From: Escherichia coli
Lineage (GTDB): Bacteria > Pseudomonadota > Gammaproteobacteria > Enterobacterales > Enterobacteriaceae
NCBI RefSeq assembly: GCF_045037415.1
Contig: NZ_CP173438.1
Length of the DNA stretch: 64,000 nucleotides
Strand: one strand, 5' to 3'
The notes beneath the pieces were generated by a model, which was not told where the DNA came from, did no database searches, and saw nothing but the letters and a program-made list of their open reading frames with translations. Every line of letters begins with the position of its first letter. Positions within the stretch are counted from its first letter, which is position 1. The position numbers and the translations under genes were made by a program. Positions 20,650 through 26,353 of this stretch are shown piece after piece.

Positions 20650-21522
20650 TTAACGCCCCTTCTTTTTGCGCCCCGGCGAGGTAAAACGCTTACCGTTGGA
20701 CGCCGGGCGACCGCCTTTTTCCGCCGTTTTTTCCATCTTAACGACTGGACGTTTGATGCCTACCGTTTTCGGTTTGGCCTTCGCTTTAGGTTTTGCCTCG
20801 GAAGAGGAATTTTCAATGAGCTTAAAGAGATCGATTAACTCATCGTCGGTTAAATCGCGCCACTCACCCAGCGGAATGCCGCTTAAGCTGACGTTCATAA
20901 TGCGCGTACGTTCCAGCTTTTTCACTTCGTAACCAAAGTGCTCGCACATGCGACGAATCTGACGGTTCAGCCCCTGCACCAGGGTAATGCGGAAGACAAA
21001 CGGTGCTTCTTTTTTGACTTTGCACTTTTTAGTTACCGTCCCGAGGATCGGCACTCCCGCCCCCATACCACGAATAAATTCATCGGTAATCGGTTTATCA
21101 ACCGTCACCAGATACTCTTTCTCATGATCGTTACCCGCACGGAGGATCTTATTCACTAGATCGCCGTGATTGGTGAGGAAAATCAGCCCCTGGGAATCTT
21201 TATCCAGGCGGCCAATCGGGAACACGCGTTTGCTGTGGTTAACGAAATCGACAATGTTATCGCGCTCGCCATCTTCGGTGGTGCTGACAATGCCTACGGG
21301 CTTGTTCAGGGCGATAAGTACCAAATCTTCGGCTTCCCGAGGCTCAATCAACTGACCGTTTACTTTCACAACGTCGCCGGATTTCACCTGATCGCCAATG
21401 GTGGCTCGCTTGCCATTAAGGAACACATTGCCTTGCTCGATATAGCGATCCGCTTCGCGGCGTGAGCAAATTCCGCTTTCGCTGATGTATTTATTTAAAC
21501 GGACTGATGAGTCGGGCAGCAT
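20650..21522 (-). CDS. rluF: 23S rRNA pseudouridine synthase F
   Basis: 290 aa; S4 domain then pseudouridine synthase core (...[18 protein letters not shown]...); Lys/Arg-rich tail. Confidence 0.9.
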
Positions 21523-21839
21523 AAATTCTCCTGTAAAACGCGGAATATACCGTACCTCTTAGCGGGGAAAAACAGGGTTATGCGGCAACGTCGAAATTAA
21601 ATGTGATCTGCCACGCCTTTTATCACAAAAGTGTCTCCGGAAGTACGATGCAAATTTGCCTGGCAAAATAAGGATAATCAACAAATTACGAATCGCTGCA
21701 CACCTGTGCTGATGACTACTACGCAGAGAAACAAATGTGCAAGAGAAAGCGCTATTTCCCCCCATGCAAAGAGTGAAAAATCGCTTTGAAAGGCCATCAT
21801 GATGGGGTTATATCAGATCAAGCGGTGAGAAAGCGTATT

Positions 21840-21853
21840 TGCACAAATGTGCA
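21840..21853. promoter_or_regulatory. perfect 6-2-6 inverted repeat TGCACAAATGTGCA upstream of sorC, candidate operator
   Basis: palindrome 17 bp upstream of sorC ATG; related half-site caaatgtgca also at ~21733; no binding evidence. Confidence 0.35.
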
Positions 21854-21869
21854 GAACCAGGAGGCGGCA

Positions 21870-22817
21870 ATGGAAAACAGTGACGATATCCGTTTGATTG
21901 TGAAGATTGCCCAACTCTATTACGAACAGGATATGACGCAGGCGCAAATTGCGCGCGAACTGGGTATTTACCGCACCACCATCAGCCGCTTGCTTAAACG
22001 AGGCCGCGATCAGGGAATTGTCACCATCGCCATCAACTATGACTACAACGAAAATCTCTGGCTGGAGCAGCAAGTGAAGCAAAAGTTTGGCCTGAAAGAC
22101 GTTGTGGTGGTGTCAGGAAATGATGAGGATGAAGATACTCAACTGGCGATGATGGGGTTACACGGCGCGCAACTGCTGGATCGCTTGCTGGAACCTGGTG
22201 ATATTGTTGGTTTTTCCTGGGGTCGCGCGGTGAGCGCACTGGTTGAAAACTTGCCGCAGGCGGGGCAATCGCGGCAGTTAATTTGCGTGCCGATTATTGG
22301 CGGCCCGTCCGGTAAACTCGAAAGCCGCTATCACGTAAACACATTAACCTACAGCGCGGCAGCGAAGCTGAAAGGGGAATCGCATCTCGCGGATTTTCCG
22401 GCTCTGCTGGATAACCCATTAATTCGTAATGGGATCATGCAGTCTCAGCACTTTAAAACCATCTCTGCCTACTGGGATAATCTGGATGTCGCCCTGGTGG
22501 GAATTGGCTCACCGGCCATTCGCGACGGCGCTAACTGGCATGCGTTTTATGGTGGTGAAGAGAGTGACGACCTGAATGCCCGCCAGGTTGCTGGCGATAT
22601 TTGCTCGCGCTTTTTTGATATTCACGGCGCAATGGTTGAAACGAATATGAGCGAAAAAACACTCTCTATCGAAATGAATAAATTAAAGCAGGCACGGTAT
22701 TCCATTGGCATTGCCATGAGCGAAGAAAAATACAGCGGAATTGTTGGTGCACTGCGTGGAAAATATATTAATTGTCTGGTAACGAATAGCAGCACAGCTG
22801 AACTATTACTGAAATAA
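21870..22817 (+). CDS. sorC: SorC-family (DeoR-like HTH plus sugar-binding domain) regulator of the sorbose operon
   Basis: start at MENSDDIRLIVKIAQLYYEQDMTQAQIARELG with RBS aggagg; N-terminal HTH; 315 aa. Confidence 0.8.
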   Translation: MENSDDIRLIVKIAQLYYEQDMTQAQIARELGIYRTTISRLLKRGRDQGIVTIAINYDYNENLWLEQQVKQKFGLKDVVVVSGNDEDEDTQLAMMGLHGAQLLDRLLEPGDIVGFSWGRAVSALVENLPQAGQSRQLICVPIIGGPSGKLESRYHVNTLTYSAAAKLKGESHLADFPALLDNPLIRNGIMQSQHFKTISAYWDNLDVALVGIGSPAIRDGANWHAFYGGEESDDLNARQVAGDICSRFFDIHGAMVETNMSEKTLSIEMNKLKQARYSIGIAMSEEKYSGIVGALRGKYINCLVTNSSTAELLLK

Positions 22818-22886: not shown

Positions 22887-23693
22887 ATGCAAACGTGGTT
22901 AAATTTGCAGGATAAAATCATTATTGTCACCGGTGGCGCATCCGGCATTGGTCTGGCGATTGTGGATGAATTATTAGCACAAGGCGCGAATGTACAGATG
23001 GTCGATATTCACGGTGGCGATGGTCAGTATGAAAGCCATAAAGGTTATCAGTTCTGGCCGACCGATATTTCCAGCGCCAAAGAGGTAAATCATACGGTAG
23101 CAGAAATTATCCAGCGTTTTGGTCGCATCGACGGTCTGGTTAACAACGCCGGGGTCAATTTCCCGCGTCTGCTGGTCGATGAGAAAGCGCCTGCCGGGCA
23201 GTATGAACTCAACGAAGCTGCATTCGAAAAAATGGTCAATATCAACCAGAAAGGCGTTTTTCTGATGTCGCAGGCGGTGGCGCGACAGATGGTCAAACAA
23301 CATGATGGCGTGATTGTGAATGTTTCCTCAGAAAGTGGGCTGGAAGGCTCAGAAGGCCAAAGCTGTTACGCCGCGACCAAAGCCGCGCTCAATAGCTTCA
23401 CGCGCTCCTGGTCGAAAGAGCTGGGTAAGCACGGTATCCGTGTGGTCGGTATCGCGCCGGGGATTCTGGAAAAAACAGGGCTGCGCACGCCGGAATATGA
23501 AGAGGCGCTGGCGTGGACGCGCAATATCACCGTCGAGCAGCTGCGTGAAGGCTATACCAAAAACGCCATTCCTATTGGGCGCGCCGGAAGATTAGCAGAA
23601 GTGGCTGATTTTGTTTGTTATCTGCTGTCTGAACGCGCCAGCTATATCACCGGAGTAACCACTAACATTGCGGGCGGCAAAACGCGCGGCTAA
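22887..23693 (+). CDS. sorD: short-chain dehydrogenase (sorbitol-6-phosphate dehydrogenase type)
   Basis: 268 aa; TGGASGIG Rossmann motif and YxxxK catalytic pair (SCYAATKAA). Confidence 0.8.
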   Translation: MQTWLNLQDKIIIVTGGASGIGLAIVDELLAQGANVQMVDIHGGDGQYESHKGYQFWPTDISSAKEVNHTVAEIIQRFGRIDGLVNNAGVNFPRLLVDEKAPAGQYELNEAAFEKMVNINQKGVFLMSQAVARQMVKQHDGVIVNVSSESGLEGSEGQSCYAATKAALNSFTRSWSKELGKHGIRVVGIAPGILEKTGLRTPEYEEALAWTRNITVEQLREGYTKNAIPIGRAGRLAEVADFVCYLLSERASYITGVTTNIAGGKTRG

Positions 23694-23702
23694 GGAGGCT
23701 TT

Positions 23703-24110
23703 ATGGTCAATGCCATTTTTTGTGCGCATGGCAAATTAGCTTGCGCCATGCTGGAATCGGTTCAGATGGTTTACGGCGATGCCAGGGTCGAGGCAGTTGA
23801 ATTTGTGCCCGGCGAGAACGCCGGAGACATCGTAGCAAAGCTGGAAAAGTTAGTAAGCATTCACAATCAAGATGAGTGGCTGATTGCCGTGGATTTACAG
23901 TGCGGCAGCCCGTGGAATGCGGCAGCGATGCTTGCGATGCGCAATCCTCGTCTGCGGGTAATCAGCGGCCTTTCTCTGCCGCTAGCGCTCGAACTGGTTG
24001 ATAACCAGGACAGCATGAATGTTGATGAACTGTGTGAACACCTGACGCAAATCGCAAAGCAAACCTGCGTCGTCTGGAGACAGGTGGCAACAGCGGAGGA
24101 GGATTTCTGA
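23703..24110 (+). CDS. sorF: PTS mannose/sorbose-family EIIA component
   Basis: 135 aa MVNAIFCAHGKLACAMLESVQMVYG...; EIIA-Man fold pattern; operon position. Confidence 0.8.
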   Translation: MVNAIFCAHGKLACAMLESVQMVYGDARVEAVEFVPGENAGDIVAKLEKLVSIHNQDEWLIAVDLQCGSPWNAAAMLAMRNPRLRVISGLSLPLALELVDNQDSMNVDELCEHLTQIAKQTCVVWRQVATAEEDF

Positions 24111-24604
24111 TGAACATTACGCTCGCCCGCATTGATGACCGCCTGATCCACGGCCAGGTCACTACCGTCTGGTCTAAAGTGGCTAACGCCCAGCGCATTA
24201 TTATCTGCAATGACGAAGTTTATAACGATGAAGTTCGCCGGACATTATTGCGTCAGGCTGCGCCACCGGGAATGAAGGTTAACGTGGTCAATATTGAAAA
24301 AGCCGTCGCGGTGTATCACAACCCGCAATATCAGGACGAAACCGTTTTTTATCTTTTCACTCGCCCACAGGATGCCTTAGCAATGGTTCGCCAGGGGGTA
24401 AAAATAGGTACCCTGAATATTGGCGGCATGGCCTGGCGTCCTGGTAAAAAACAGTTAACCAAAGCAGTTTCATTAGATGACGATGATATTAACGCATTTC
24501 ATGAGTTAAATAATCTTGGCGTCATACTGGATTTACGCGTCGTAGCGTCAGATCCCTCAATCAATATTATCGACAAAATAAATGAACAGTTAATCGCGAA
24601 TTAA
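24110..24604 (+). CDS. sorB: PTS mannose/sorbose-family EIIB component
   Basis: 164 aa MNITLARIDDRLIHGQVTTVWSK... (conserved IIB-Man N-terminus with phospho-His). Confidence 0.8.
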   Translation: MNITLARIDDRLIHGQVTTVWSKVANAQRIIICNDEVYNDEVRRTLLRQAAPPGMKVNVVNIEKAVAVYHNPQYQDETVFYLFTRPQDALAMVRQGVKIGTLNIGGMAWRPGKKQLTKAVSLDDDDINAFHELNNLGVILDLRVVASDPSINIIDKINEQLIAN

Positions 24605-24669
24605 ATAATAGCGCCTGTGTACATATGCTTTAACAGGCAGGGATGACGACACTTAAAAGGTGACAAATC

Positions 24670-25467
24670 ATGGAAATAAGTACTCTACAAATCATTGCTA
24701 TATTTCTTTTTTCCTGTATTGCCGGAATGGGCAGCGTGCTGGATGAATTTCAGACTCATCGTCCGTTAATTGCCTGTACGGTGATTGGTTTAATTCTCGG
24801 TGATTTAAAAACCGGAATTATGCTCGGTGGTACGCTGGAATTGATAGCTCTCGGCTGGATGAACGTCGGCGCGGCGCAATCTCCGGATTCTGCGCTCGCC
24901 AGCATAATCTCCGCCATTCTGGTTATCGTTGGTCAGCAAAGCATCGCCACCGGAATCGCCATCGCGTTGCCTGTGGCTGCGGCAGGCCAGGTGCTGACGG
25001 TGTTTGCCCGTACCATCACCGTAGTGTTCCAGCACGCGGCGGATAAAGCAGCGGAAGAAGCACGGTTTCGCACTCTCGATATTCTGCATGTCTCCGCGCT
25101 TGGCGTGCAGGCACTGCGCGTTGCTATTCCGGCACTGATTGTCTCGCTGTTCGTCAGCGCTGATATGGTGAGCAATATGCTGAGCGCCATTCCCGAATTT
25201 GTGACCCGTGGACTGCAGATTGCTGGCGGTTTTATCGTGGTGGTCGGTTACGCCATGGTGCTTCGCATGATGGGCGTGAAATATTTGATGCCTTTCTTTT
25301 TCCTCGGTTTCCTCGCAGGTGGCTACCTCGATCTCAGTCTGCTGGCGTTCGGTGGCGTCGGCGTGATCATGGCCCTGCTCTACATCCAGTTAAATCCACA
25401 GTGGCGTAAAGCTGAACCACATCCCCAGACCACCACTATCACCGCCCTTGACCAACTTGATGATTAA
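24670..25467 (+). CDS. sorA: PTS mannose/sorbose-family EIIC component
   Basis: 265-aa polytopic membrane protein. Confidence 0.8.
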   Translation: MEISTLQIIAIFLFSCIAGMGSVLDEFQTHRPLIACTVIGLILGDLKTGIMLGGTLELIALGWMNVGAAQSPDSALASIISAILVIVGQQSIATGIAIALPVAAAGQVLTVFARTITVVFQHAADKAAEEARFRTLDILHVSALGVQALRVAIPALIVSLFVSADMVSNMLSAIPEFVTRGLQIAGGFIVVVGYAMVLRMMGVKYLMPFFFLGFLAGGYLDLSLLAFGGVGVIMALLYIQLNPQWRKAEPHPQTTTITALDQLDD

Positions 25468-25477
25468 CGGAGCCATC

Positions 25478-26302
25478 ATGGAACAGAGAAAAATTACACG
25501 CAGCGATCTGGTGAGCATGTTTCTGCGCTCCAACCTGCAACAGGCATCCTTTAACTTTGAACGTATTCACGGGCTGGGTTTTTGCTACGACATGATCCCC
25601 GCCATCAAACGACTTTACCCATTAAAAGAGGATCAGGTTGCGGCGCTCAGGCGACACCTGGTGTTCTTCAATACCACGCCAGCCGTATGTGGCCCGGTCA
25701 TCGGCGTCACTGCCGCCATGGAAGAGGCGCGAGCCAACGGCGCGGAAATTGATGACGGTACCATTAACGGCATCAAAGTCGGTCTGATGGGACCATTGGC
25801 AGGAGTTGGCGATCCACTGGTCTGGGGAACGCTGCGCCCGATTACCGCCGCGCTCGGCGCATCTCTGGCACTTTCGGGCAACATTCTCGGCCCCCTGCTG
25901 TTCTTCTTTATTTTCAACGTGGTGCGCCTGGCGATGAAGTGGTATGGCCTACAGCTCGGCTTTCGCAAAGGGGTGAATATCGTCAGCGATATGGGCGGTA
26001 ATTTGCTGCAAAAACTCACCGAAGGCGCGTCGATTCTCGGGCTGTTTGTGATGGGCGTGCTGGTGACCAAATGGACGTCAATCAACGTACCGTTGGTGGT
26101 TTCACAAACGCCTGCCGCCGATGGTGCCACCGTCACCATAACCGTGCAGAACATCCTCGACCAACTTTGCCCTGGTTTGCTGGCGCTCGGTCTGACGCTG
26201 CTGATGGTTCGTCTGCTCAACAAAAAAATTAACCCGGTATGGCTGATTTTCGCCCTGTTTGGTTTAGGGATTATCGGTAATGCGCTGGGCTTCCTGTCCT
26301 GA
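25478..26302 (+). CDS. sorM: PTS mannose/sorbose-family EIID component
   Basis: start at MEQRKITRSDLVSMFLRSNLQQASFNFERIHGLGF (IID signature), 274 aa. Confidence 0.8.
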   Translation: MEQRKITRSDLVSMFLRSNLQQASFNFERIHGLGFCYDMIPAIKRLYPLKEDQVAALRRHLVFFNTTPAVCGPVIGVTAAMEEARANGAEIDDGTINGIKVGLMGPLAGVGDPLVWGTLRPITAALGASLALSGNILGPLLFFFIFNVVRLAMKWYGLQLGFRKGVNIVSDMGGNLLQKLTEGASILGLFVMGVLVTKWTSINVPLVVSQTPAADGATVTITVQNILDQLCPGLLALGLTLLMVRLLNKKINPVWLIFALFGLGIIGNALGFLS

Positions 26303-26353
26303 TTCTTCGCCCCGGCGCAACCGTCGGGGCCATCGTTCAACACGAGGTGGTTT

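What the first reader, a model, noticed from the sequence alone, without database searches (positions are those of the whole stretch)
21840..21853. Perfect palindrome TGCACAAATGTGCA immediately upstream of sorC
A 6-2-6 perfect inverted repeat sits 17 bp upstream of the sorC start, and a related half-site caaatgtgca occurs about 110 bp further upstream. This is a plausible autoregulatory SorC operator or a CRP-like site; SorC-family regulators bind such palindromes.
Basis: seen in the sequence. Interest (0 to 1): 0.3.

Follow-up and report, generated by a model that had tools for sequence, protein, structure and literature searches.

The report
Likely SorC operator before sorC
The 14-base palindrome just upstream of the E. 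coli sorbose regulator gene sorC is a real, very strongly conserved protein-binding site, almost certainly the main operator of SorC itself and not a CRP site. It is an ordinary kind of element, but it seems never to have been mapped experimentally.

Summary
TGCACAAATGTGCA lies at 21840-21853, 16 nt before the sorC ATG (21870), and CAAATGTGCA recurs 112 bp upstream.

A perfect 6-2-6 inverted repeat alone means nothing: the window holds 20, against about 16 expected. Three other results give it weight:
- It is the most conserved 14-mer of the sorC upstream region across 28 enterobacterial loci. It is perfect in 25; three carry one substitution. Flanks average 62% identity.
- A second palindrome, O2 (21697-21710), sits 143 bp upstream in 24 of 26 loci. 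Its GCACA/GTGC half-sites are near-invariant and its centre varies freely.
- The motif travels with the regulator. It is found by SorC homologues sharing the GIYRTTISR helix in Kluyvera and three Firmicutes, which control other genes. Chloroflexi homologues have a different helix and a different palindrome.

Its geometry (TTGCA-N6-TGCAA) matches the crystallographically defined B. subtilis DeoR operator (TTGAA-N6-TTCAA).

The CRP reading fails; a separate CRP-like site lies at 21599-21620.

The only positionally conserved sigma-70-like promoter puts the palindrome (O1) near +20 to +33. This suggests repression, possibly by looping to O2. The start site and SorC binding are untested.

Verdict: new member of a known kind, modest interest.

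The parts
21840..21853 (.). O1: perfect palindrome TGCACAAATGTGCA, the proposed primary SorC operator. With its flanks it reads TTGCA-CAAATG-TGCAg.
   Evidence: Searches confirm the sequence. It is the most conserved 14-mer of the upstream region (majority fraction 0.991 against a mean of 0.72). It is perfect in 25 of 28 sequences; Serratia (AGCAC...) and two Kluyvera (TGCACATATGTGCA) each carry one substitution. It is also present in K. pneumoniae.
21697..21710 (.). O2: second palindrome TGCACACCTGTGCT, the proposed upstream SorC operator.
   Evidence: Searches find it. Across 28 sequences GCACA-NNN-GTGC is constant in all but the two Kluyvera rows (which lack O2) and single changes in two others. 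Positions 1, 7-9 and 14 vary freely. The spacing to O1 is 143 bp in 24 loci, 144 in Serratia, and Kluyvera has no O2.
21728..21741 (.). O2': half operator. The right half CAAATGTGCA (21732-21741) is conserved and the left half is degenerate. It lies 31 bp downstream of O2 and 112 bp upstream of O1.
   Evidence: In Kluyvera this site is a full palindrome, TGCACAAACGTGCA.
21622..21635 (.). Od: distal conserved palindrome ATCACAAAAGTGTC with core CAC-AAAA-GTG. It has the same CAC-N4-GTG geometry, but with A/T in place of G and T in place of C at the symmetric positions 2 and 13. It may be a weak SorC site or the site of another protein.
   Evidence: CACAAAAGTG is conserved in 24-25 of 27 sequences. 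No assignment was tested.
21599..21620 (.). CRP-like site AAATGTGATCTGCCACGCCTTT. The left half matches the 22-bp CRP consensus at 11 of 11 positions. The right half is poor in E. coli and better (CACAC) in most other genera.
   Evidence: Searches show that TAAATGTGATC and C..C.CCTTT are conserved. A search for the consensus with up to 3 mismatches finds nothing, so the site is only CRP-like.
21676..21688 (+). IHF-consensus site AATCAACAAATTA (WATCARNNNNTTR).
   Evidence: One search finds 8 matches in the window against 3.6 expected. One search shows AATCA[AG]NNNNTTA in 25 of 28 sequences, with the consensus bases invariant and the N4 free.
21786..21791 (+). Predicted -35 hexamer TTGAAA.
   Evidence: TTGAAA-17-TATATC is the best sigma-70-like match in the intergenic region. 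It is also the only one conserved in position (27 of 28 sequences). This is a prediction only.
21806..21820 (+). Conserved block GGTTATATCAGATCA containing the predicted -10 hexamer TATATC (21809-21814). The predicted transcription start is about 21821.
   Evidence: rank it the second most conserved block. Its distance to O1 is fixed at 31 bp in 27 of 28 sequences, Kluyvera included. The start site was not determined.
21859..21864 (+). Shine-Dalgarno sequence AGGAGG of sorC.
   Evidence: In most other genera GGAG directly abuts O1.
21870..22817 (+). sorC, a SorC-family regulator of 315 aa.
   Evidence: E = 1e-182 to K. pneumoniae SorC (PDB 2W48), with residues 1-46 of the DNA-binding domain identical. 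Pfam Sugar-bind domain plus an N-terminal helix-turn-helix.
22887..27583 (+). sorDFBAME: sorbitol-6-P dehydrogenase, sorbose PTS subunits IIA, IIB, IIC and IID, and a zinc-dehydrogenase-like gene I take to be sorE. This is the operon presumed to be controlled from the sorC promoter.
   Evidence: (NCBIfam) and the ORFs. No further motif copies occur inside the operon.

Best explanation
The palindrome (O1) is the high-affinity DNA site of SorC, the regulator encoded immediately downstream. One SorC dimer would bind it through its N-terminal helix-turn-helix domains, reading two half-sites (T)TGCA/GCAC placed symmetrically. This is the way B. subtilis DeoR reads TTGAA-N6-TTCAA. O1 belongs to a rigidly spaced array: a CRP-like site, a distal palindrome (Od), an IHF site, O2 plus the half-site O2', the predicted promoter, then O1. 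Because O1 lies about +20 to +33 from the predicted promoter, SorC bound there would repress sorC and the sorDFBAME genes when L-sorbose is absent. Repression is probably reinforced when a SorC tetramer bridges O1 and O2, 143 bp apart. Inducer would break this arrangement and leave SorC at O2/O2' upstream of the promoter, where it could activate. Shown here: the motif, its conservation, its fixed spacing, and its association with the SorC-type DNA-binding domain. Inferred: that SorC is the binder, where the promoter lies, and the repression, looping and activation logic.
For: Conservation:
- O1 is the most conserved 14-mer upstream of sorC in 28 loci from about 15 genera and is present in K. 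pneumoniae.
- Twenty-four of these loci are syntenic sorCDFBA operons.
- O2 keeps GCACA...GTGC while its centre and ends vary. That is the signature of a dimer reading two half-sites.

Spacing:
- Spacings are invariant despite about 62% mean flank identity: O2 to O1 143 bp, O2 to O2' 31 bp, -10 block to O1 31 bp.

Link to the regulator:
- The motif follows the regulator and not the cargo. Kluyvera has a sorC-like gene plus a shikimate-dehydrogenase-like gene.
- Three Firmicute homologues (43-47% identical) sit beside GFO/IDH/MocA and RpiA-like genes.
- All of these carry TGCACA-N2-TGTGCA-type sites and share the helix GIYRTTISR.
- Chloroflexi homologues with the helix LSRVKVYR carry GTGCAATTGCAC instead.
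- SorC here is about 90% identical to the K. pneumoniae SorC crystallised as 2W48, with residues 1-46 of the DNA-binding domain identical.

Family comparison:
- The two arginines of the DeoR helix SRPTVSR align with SorC R35 and R40. I equate these with R34 and R39, which PMC11229326 reports as base-contacting; that equation infers a 2-residue N-terminal offset in chain 7BHY.
- The DeoR operator OL, ATTGAACAAAATTTCAAT, has the same 5-6-5 register as TTGCACAAATGTGCA(a/g) (PMC11229326).
- PMC2943609 records that SorC is both repressor and activator of the sor operon and is a tetramer with two separated pairs of DNA-binding domains.
- The CggR operator lies at +32 to +77, so operators downstream of the start site have a precedent in this family.
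Against: - No binding experiment exists, and I found no published SorC operator.
- The transcription start is only predicted, and the -10 hexamer TATATC lacks the usual final T. The standard promoter scan found nothing, so 'downstream of the start' is uncertain.
- O1 has no partner site 20-31 bp away. DeoR, CggR and the Firmicute loci all use paired sites about two helical turns apart.
- The O1-O2 distance of 143 bp is 13.6 turns at 10.5 bp per turn, so the two sites are not on the same face of the helix.
- The centre of O1 (AAAT) is invariant although the centre of O2 is free. Some extra constraint on O1 remains unexplained.
Confidence: 0.8

Rival explanations
1. O1 is a CRP (cAMP receptor protein) site that mediates catabolite control of the sor operon.
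For: The motif contains TGTG and CACA, which superficially resemble CRP half-sites. Catabolite control of a sugar operon is plausible on general knowledge.
Against: CRP sites are TGTGA-N6-TCACA. In O1 the order is reversed (CAC before GTG), the spacing is 4 bp, and the whole site is 14 bp, not 22. No match to the CRP 22-mer with up to 3 mismatches exists in the window. A separate conserved site with a perfect CRP left half lies at 21599-21620. The same motif occurs next to SorC homologues in Firmicutes, which have no CRP (the absence of CRP is established knowledge).
Confidence: 0.02
2. The palindrome acts as an RNA hairpin in the sorC 5' untranslated region, just upstream of the ribosome-binding site, and controls translation or mRNA stability.
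For: If the start site is near 21821, the palindrome is transcribed and folds into a 7-bp hairpin ending 5 nt before the Shine-Dalgarno sequence. In most genera it abuts GGAG. The invariant centre of O1 is not explained by half-site recognition alone.
Against: The folding energy of the putative leader is ordinary (z = -0.67; 49 of 200 shuffles fold at least as well). No Rfam family matches. No compensatory changes exist because the arms never vary. Copies of the same motif sit 112 and 143 bp upstream, before the predicted promoter, with half-site-type conservation. In Firmicutes the motif overlaps -35 and -10 elements.
Confidence: 0.05
3. O1 is a true protein-binding site, but its binder is not SorC. 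It could be another regulator with TGCAC-type half-sites (an NtrC-like protein) or a nucleoid protein.
For: Binding has not been tested. From memory, NtrC sites (TGCACC-N5-GGTGCA) share TGCAC/GTGCA half-sites.
Against: NtrC half-sites are 3 bp further apart. The only gene shared by the sor, Kluyvera and Firmicute loci that carry the motif is the SorC-type regulator. The motif changes where the recognition helix changes.
Confidence: 0.08
4. O1 is a chance palindrome with no function.
For: Perfect 6-2-6 inverted repeats are as common as chance predicts: 20 in the window against about 15.6 expected.
Against: O1 is perfect in 25 of 28 diverged loci and has one substitution in the other three, while its neighbours vary. 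It also recurs in the same promoter.
Confidence: 0.01

Closest known systems
B. subtilis DeoR operator (dra-nupC-pdp operon), SorC/DeoR subfamily; structures 7BHY and 8R7Y, PMC11229326
   Same: - The regulator has the same domain architecture, an N-terminal helix-turn-helix plus a sugar-binding domain, and matches DeoR at E = 1e-39.
- The recognition helices align: SorC YRTTISR against DeoR SRPTVSR, with both arginines conserved.
- The operator geometry is the same: TTGCA-CAAATG-TGCA(a/g) against TTGAA-CAAAAT-TTCAA. That is 11-12 of 16 bases identical in the same register.
- The upstream pair O2 plus O2' (a palindrome and a repeat of its right half) mirrors DeoR's 'palindrome plus direct repeat' operator.
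   Different: - The half-site has C where DeoR has A (TTGCA against TTGAA).
- DeoR's two sites are about 22 bp apart and overlap the -35 (operator at -60 to -21). Here O2 and O2' are 31 bp apart and lie upstream of the predicted promoter.
- O1 is isolated, and by prediction lies downstream of the start.
- DeoR is a pure repressor, whereas SorC is reported to be both repressor and activator (PMC2943609).
B. subtilis CggR operator (gapA operon), SorC/CggR subfamily
   Same: The regulator is the first gene of the operon it controls. The operator lies downstream of the transcription start (+32 to +77, PMC11229326). Binding by a tetramer is modulated by a sugar phosphate.
   Different: CggR has a different, winged-helix DNA-binding domain and a 45-bp tandem operator built on direct repeats. 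There is no sequence resemblance to O1.
E. coli LsrR and the lsr intergenic operators
   Same: LsrR belongs to the same subfamily (E = 9e-29) and has an aligned helix, TRLKVSR. It is tetrameric and works alongside CRP sites in the same control region (PMC5137460).
   Different: The LsrR boxes are described differently in the paper I could read, and I did not compare them base by base. The effector is phospho-AI-2.
AraC-type 'light switch' and GalR/DeoR(E. coli)-type repression loops
   Same: Two operators more than 100 bp apart with fixed spacing bracket a promoter, together with CRP and a DNA-bending protein site. The regulator both represses and activates.
   Different: The protein family is unrelated. 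Looping here is only inferred from the invariant spacing and from the tetrameric SorC structure.

Membership tests
Operator of a SorC/DeoR-subfamily regulator | A dyad-symmetric site with 5-bp half-sites separated by 6 bp, as in DeoR OL (TTGAA-N6-TTCAA) | tested here: met
   O1 with its flanks reads TTGCA-CAAATG-TGCA(g/a), in the same register (DeoR sequence from PMC11229326).
Operator of a SorC/DeoR-subfamily regulator | Lies in the control region of the regulator's own operon or target operon | tested here: met
   O1 ends 16 nt upstream of the sorC ATG, and sorC is the first gene of sorCDFBAME.
Operator of a SorC/DeoR-subfamily regulator | The cognate regulator keeps the base-contacting residues of the helix-turn-helix | tested here: met
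   The two arginines of the DeoR helix SRPTVSR align with SorC R35 and R40. Their identification as DeoR R34 and R39 infers a 2-residue N-terminal offset in chain 7BHY; the contacts are reported in PMC11229326.
Operator of a SorC/DeoR-subfamily regulator | A paired second site about two helical turns away, allowing tetramer binding | tested here: not met
   O1 has no related site within 20-31 bp. The feature is met only loosely by O2 and O2' (31 bp). It is met in the Firmicute loci (19-20 bp).
Operator of a SorC/DeoR-subfamily regulator | The site co-varies with the regulator's DNA-binding domain across homologues | tested here: met
   Homologues with helix GIYRTTISR have TGCACA-N2-TGTGCA sites whatever the neighbouring genes. 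Homologues with helix LSRVKVYR have GTGCAATTGCAC.
Operator of a SorC/DeoR-subfamily regulator | Specific, effector-sensitive binding by the regulator is demonstrated | not testable with these tools
   This needs a gel-shift or footprint with purified SorC. In 2010 PMC2943609 said that B. subtilis DeoR was the only SorC-family member other than CggR whose DNA site had been identified.
CRP binding site | A 22-bp site with TGTGA-N6-TCACA | tested here: not met
   O1 is CAC-N4-GTG, with reversed order and shorter spacing. No consensus match with up to 3 mismatches exists in the window.
Structured RNA element or intrinsic terminator | Unusually stable structure, compensatory changes, a known family, or a U-tract | tested here: not met
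   z = -0.67. No Rfam hit. No terminator-like site. The arms never vary, so covariation cannot be assessed.
IHF site (for 21676-21688, not for O1) | WATCARNNNNTTR with the consensus positions conserved | tested here: met
   AATCA[AG]NNNNTTA occurs in 25 of 28 loci with the N4 free. Binding was not tested.

The most novel reading that the evidence does not exclude
The sor control region is a rigid, multi-protein switch. A SorC tetramer bridges the promoter-distal pair O2/O2' and the promoter-proximal O1 across a fixed 143-bp loop. An IHF-induced bend folds the far-upstream CRP-like site and the distal palindrome back onto the promoter: Od and O2' lie 53.5 and 52.5 bp either side of the IHF site. 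Inducer would convert the repressing loop into an activating upstream complex, which would explain SorC's long-known but mechanistically unexplained dual role as repressor and activator. It would be an AraC-like 'light switch' built from a SorC-family tetramer.
Probability: 0.25. Interest if true: 0.5.

Novelty: new member of a known kind. Interest (0 to 1): 0.32.

Why it matters
SorC gives its name to a large family of sugar-responsive regulators. Even so, the papers I could read treat only DeoR, CggR and LsrR as having defined DNA sites. A precise operator prediction allows direct tests of how SorC can both repress and activate. The prediction comprises:
- a 14-bp core (O1);
- two further sites (O2, O2');
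- fixed 31, 112 and 143 bp spacings;
- candidate IHF and CRP sites.

It also gives a specificity pair for the subfamily, TTGCA for the YRTTISR helix against TTGAA for SRPTVSR. This matters little beyond the field: autoregulatory operators in front of sugar-operon regulators are routine.

Tried and rejected
- **Standard promoter and terminator scan:** it found nothing. I replaced it with a position-weight scan across 28 orthologues. This gives one conserved candidate but no proof.
- **Candidate promoter with -10 GATAAT at 21673-21678:** rejected. It scores poorly, and the conserved bases there fit the IHF consensus better.
- **CRP consensus search:** no match with up to 3 mismatches, so the upstream site is only 'CRP-like'.
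- **RNA reading:** the fold is ordinary and there is no Rfam match.
- **Partner half-site for O1:** I looked 20-31 bp either side. The only conserved element, 31 bp upstream, is the -10 block, which bears no resemblance to the motif.
- **Literature:** neither the motif string nor a SorC binding motif appears in any searchable paper. The primary SorC papers (PMID 2277638 and 19232357) are not held. A promoter or operator described there, or in RegPrecise, cannot be excluded.
- **Protein homology search:** it returned only close homologues (at least 70% identity) and added no new genomic contexts.
- **LsrR operator comparison:** abandoned. The accessible paper gives only fragments of the box.

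Full report
**Observation.** The sequence TGCACAAATGTGCA occupies exactly 21840-21853. Its arms TGCACA and TGTGCA are perfect reverse complements around AA. The sorC ATG is at 21870, preceded by AGGAGG (21859-21864), so 16 nt separate the palindrome from the start codon. The upstream 'half-site' is real: ACAAATGTGCA at 21731-21741 is an exact 11-nt repeat of 21843-21853, 112 bp away. I call the three sites O1 (21840), O2 (21697) and O2' (21728-21741).

**Context.** The window is E. coli chromosome.
- The downstream ORF (315 aa) matches K. pneumoniae SorC (PDB 2W48) at E = 1e-182, with residues 1-46 of the DNA-binding domain identical.
- It is followed by sorbitol-6-P dehydrogenase, the four sorbose PTS subunits and a dehydrogenase, giving sorCDFBAME.
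- rluF lies divergently upstream (20650-21522).
- About half of complete E. coli genomes (2865 of 5426) carry this region. In the others the match stops at about window position 21557, so the whole 312-bp control region belongs to the sor segment.

**Is it more than chance?**
- A perfect 6-2-6 inverted repeat is not remarkable. The window contains 20, against about 15.6 expected.
- The specific motif is different. Only two sites in 64 kb match with at most 1 mismatch, against 0.21 expected, and both lie in this one intergenic region.

**Conservation.**
- A scan of one genome per species returned 27 enterobacterial loci (E. coli, Pseudocitrobacter, Citrobacter, Klebsiella, Raoultella, Enterobacter, Mangrovibacter, Cedecea, Pantoea, Serratia, Entomohabitans, Kluyvera) and 17 distant homologues. 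With the window this makes 28 sequences.
- Twenty-four of the 27 loci are syntenic sorCDFBA loci.
- In the alignment of the 340 bp upstream of sorC, mean pairwise identity of the non-coding part is 62%. The single most conserved 14-bp window is 21840-21853, with a majority fraction of 0.991 against a regional mean of 0.72.
- O1 is perfect in 25 of 28 sequences. Serratia has one change at position 1, and the two Kluyvera have TGCACATATGTGCA. The sequence between O1 and the start codon diverges freely.
- K. pneumoniae, the species in which SorC was studied, has the same site abutting its GGAG.

**A site read as two half-sites.**
- At O2 the pattern is informative. G2, C3, A4, C5, A6 and G10, T11, G12, C13 are constant in all but the two Kluyvera rows (which lack O2) and single changes in two other sequences.
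- Positions 7-9 take CCT, TCT, TTT, TAT, AAC, AAG, AAA or AAT, and positions 1 and 14 vary.
- This is what a symmetric dimer contacting GCAC(A)/(T)GTGC would leave.
- O2' keeps only the right half (CAAATGTGCA). In Kluyvera it is a full palindrome.

**Rigid spacing.**
- Spacing is fixed across 24-25 loci: O2 to O2' 31 bp, O2' to the -10 block 80 bp, the -10 block to O1 31 bp, and O2 to O1 143 bp (144 in Serratia).
- The spacing of the upstream elements described below is fixed as well.

**The motif follows the regulator.**
- Kluyvera carries, in the same rluF-pepE slot, a 70%-identical sorC-like gene followed by a shikimate-dehydrogenase-like gene and no sor PTS genes. It still has the palindrome 30 bp upstream of the regulator and another 101 bp further up.
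- Three Firmicute homologues (43-47% identical) neighbour GFO/IDH/MocA oxidoreductase and RpiA-like genes. They have TGCACAATTGTGCT, or TGCACAATTGTACT plus TGTACATTTGTGCA, in their upstream regions.
- These Firmicute sites are paired with a second site or half-site 19-20 bp away and overlap plausible -35/-10 elements.
- All of these proteins share the helix-turn-helix segment LGIYRTTISR(L/M)LK.
- Chloroflexi homologues (about 28% identical) have LSRVKVYRLLK instead. They carry a different tandem palindrome, GTGCAATTGCAC.
- The only gene common to all motif-bearing loci is the SorC-type regulator, which makes SorC by far the likeliest binder.

**Family comparison.**
- PMC11229326 gives the B. 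subtilis DeoR operator as ATTGAACAAAATTTCAATTACCAATTTACATATGTTCAA and reports base contacts by R34 and R39 within 5'-TTGAACA-3'.
- Written in the same register, DeoR OL is TTGAA-CAAAAT-TTCAA and SorC O1 is TTGCA-CAAATG-TGCA(g/a). They share the 5-6-5 geometry and 11-12 of 16 bases.
- The DeoR helix SRPTVSR aligns with SorC YRTTISR, and both arginines are kept (SorC R35 and R40). Equating them with DeoR R34 and R39 infers a 2-residue N-terminal offset in chain 7BHY.
- DeoR's 'palindrome plus direct repeat' layout is echoed by O2 plus O2'.
- The paired-site criterion is not met for O1 itself, because no related sequence lies within 20-31 bp of it.

**Promoter architecture (predicted).**
- A weight-matrix scan of all 28 sequences finds one sigma-70-like promoter that is both the best in E. 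coli and conserved in position (27 of 28). It is TTGAAA (21786-21791), a 17-bp spacer, then TATATC (21809-21814), inside the highly conserved block GGTTATATCAGATCA.
- This predicts a start near 21821. On that prediction O1 lies at about +20 to +33, O2' at about -87 and O2 at about -118.
- Further upstream are three more conserved elements:
  - An IHF-consensus site, AATCAACAAATTA, at 21676-21688. Its consensus bases are invariant and its N4 is free in 25 loci.
  - A distal palindrome, ATCACAAAAGTGTC, at 21622-21635.
  - A CRP-like site at 21599-21620 with a perfect left half, AAATGTGATCT.

**Mechanism (inference).**
- SorC bound at O1 would block promoter clearance or elongation. CggR offers a family precedent with its +32 to +77 operator (PMC11229326).
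- PMC2943609 describes the SorC tetramer as having two separated pairs of DNA-binding domains. Such a tetramer could bridge O1 and O2.
- PMC2943609 also recalls that SorC is both repressor and activator. Inducer-dependent release of O1 with retention at O2/O2' would account for both roles.
- None of this was tested.

**Rivals.**
- CRP is excluded for O1 by geometry and by the motif's presence in Firmicutes.
- An RNA hairpin is possible but not supported. The fold gives z = -0.67, there is no Rfam hit, and motif copies lie upstream of the predicted promoter.
- Another DNA-binding protein cannot be formally excluded without experiments.
- Chance is excluded by the conservation.

**Novelty.**
- In 2010 PMC2943609 described B. 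subtilis DeoR as the only SorC-family member other than CggR whose DNA site had been identified.
- The 2024 structural paper still speaks of limited knowledge.
- No searchable paper contains the motif string.
- The primary SorC papers are not in the library, and RegPrecise could not be consulted, so a prior prediction cannot be ruled out.
- In kind this is an ordinary autoregulatory operator: a new, well-supported member of a known class.

Noticed in passing
window 21697-21710 and 21728-21741: A second near-perfect palindrome (TGCACACCTGTGCT) and a half-site lie 31 bp apart. Both are conserved at fixed distances (143 and 112 bp) from the reported palindrome.
   Followed up: yes
window 21676-21688: A perfect IHF consensus, AATCAACAAATTA. 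In 25 of 28 orthologous loci the consensus bases are invariant while the four central bases vary freely.
   Followed up: partly
window 21599-21635: A CRP-like site (AAATGTGATCT left half) is immediately followed by another conserved palindrome, ATCACAAAAGTGTC. This palindrome has the same CAC-N4-GTG geometry as O1, but with symmetric substitutions (G to A/T, C to T). Its binder is unknown.
   Followed up: partly
window 21806-21820: The block GGTTATATCAGATCA is almost as conserved as the palindrome and always lies 31 bp upstream of it. It is longer than a -10 hexamer needs to be. It contains a conserved GATC, as does the CRP-like site (TGTGATC).
   Followed up: partly
L046 (E. coli EC65, NZ_CM128671.1), corresponding to window 21743-21751: An IS1 element is inserted in the sor control region, with the 9-bp target duplication GAGAAAGCG, just downstream of O2'. 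It separates the upstream sites from the core promoter and O1. This is a natural test of the upstream sites' role.
   Followed up: partly
L022 and L023 (Kluyvera), about 2870-4760: The same rluF-pepE chromosomal slot holds a 70%-identical sorC-like regulator plus a shikimate-dehydrogenase-like gene in place of the sorbose PTS operon. The operator palindromes are retained.
   Followed up: partly
window about 21557 (junction) to about 27600: The sor segment is a presence/absence polymorphism in E. coli: 2865 of 5426 complete genomes carry it. In most other genera examined sor is also next to rluF.
   Followed up: partly
L035, L036, L038 and L044 (Chloroflexi MAGs), -20 to -65 relative to the regulator start: Distant SorC-family regulators carry tandem GTGCAATTGCAC palindromes 19-21 bp apart next to -10-like TATTCT or TATCCT. 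This is a different motif that goes with a different recognition helix.
   Followed up: partly
window 21743-21751 and 21827-21835: The direct repeat GAGAAAGCG flanks O2' and O1 in the E. coli and Pseudocitrobacter lineage only. It is not conserved in other genera, and its significance is unknown.
   Followed up: no
window 21650-21659: GCAAATTTGC is a 10-bp perfect palindrome in E. coli. It is partly conserved (TGCAAnTTTG) between the distal palindrome and the IHF site, and no function is assigned.
   Followed up: no
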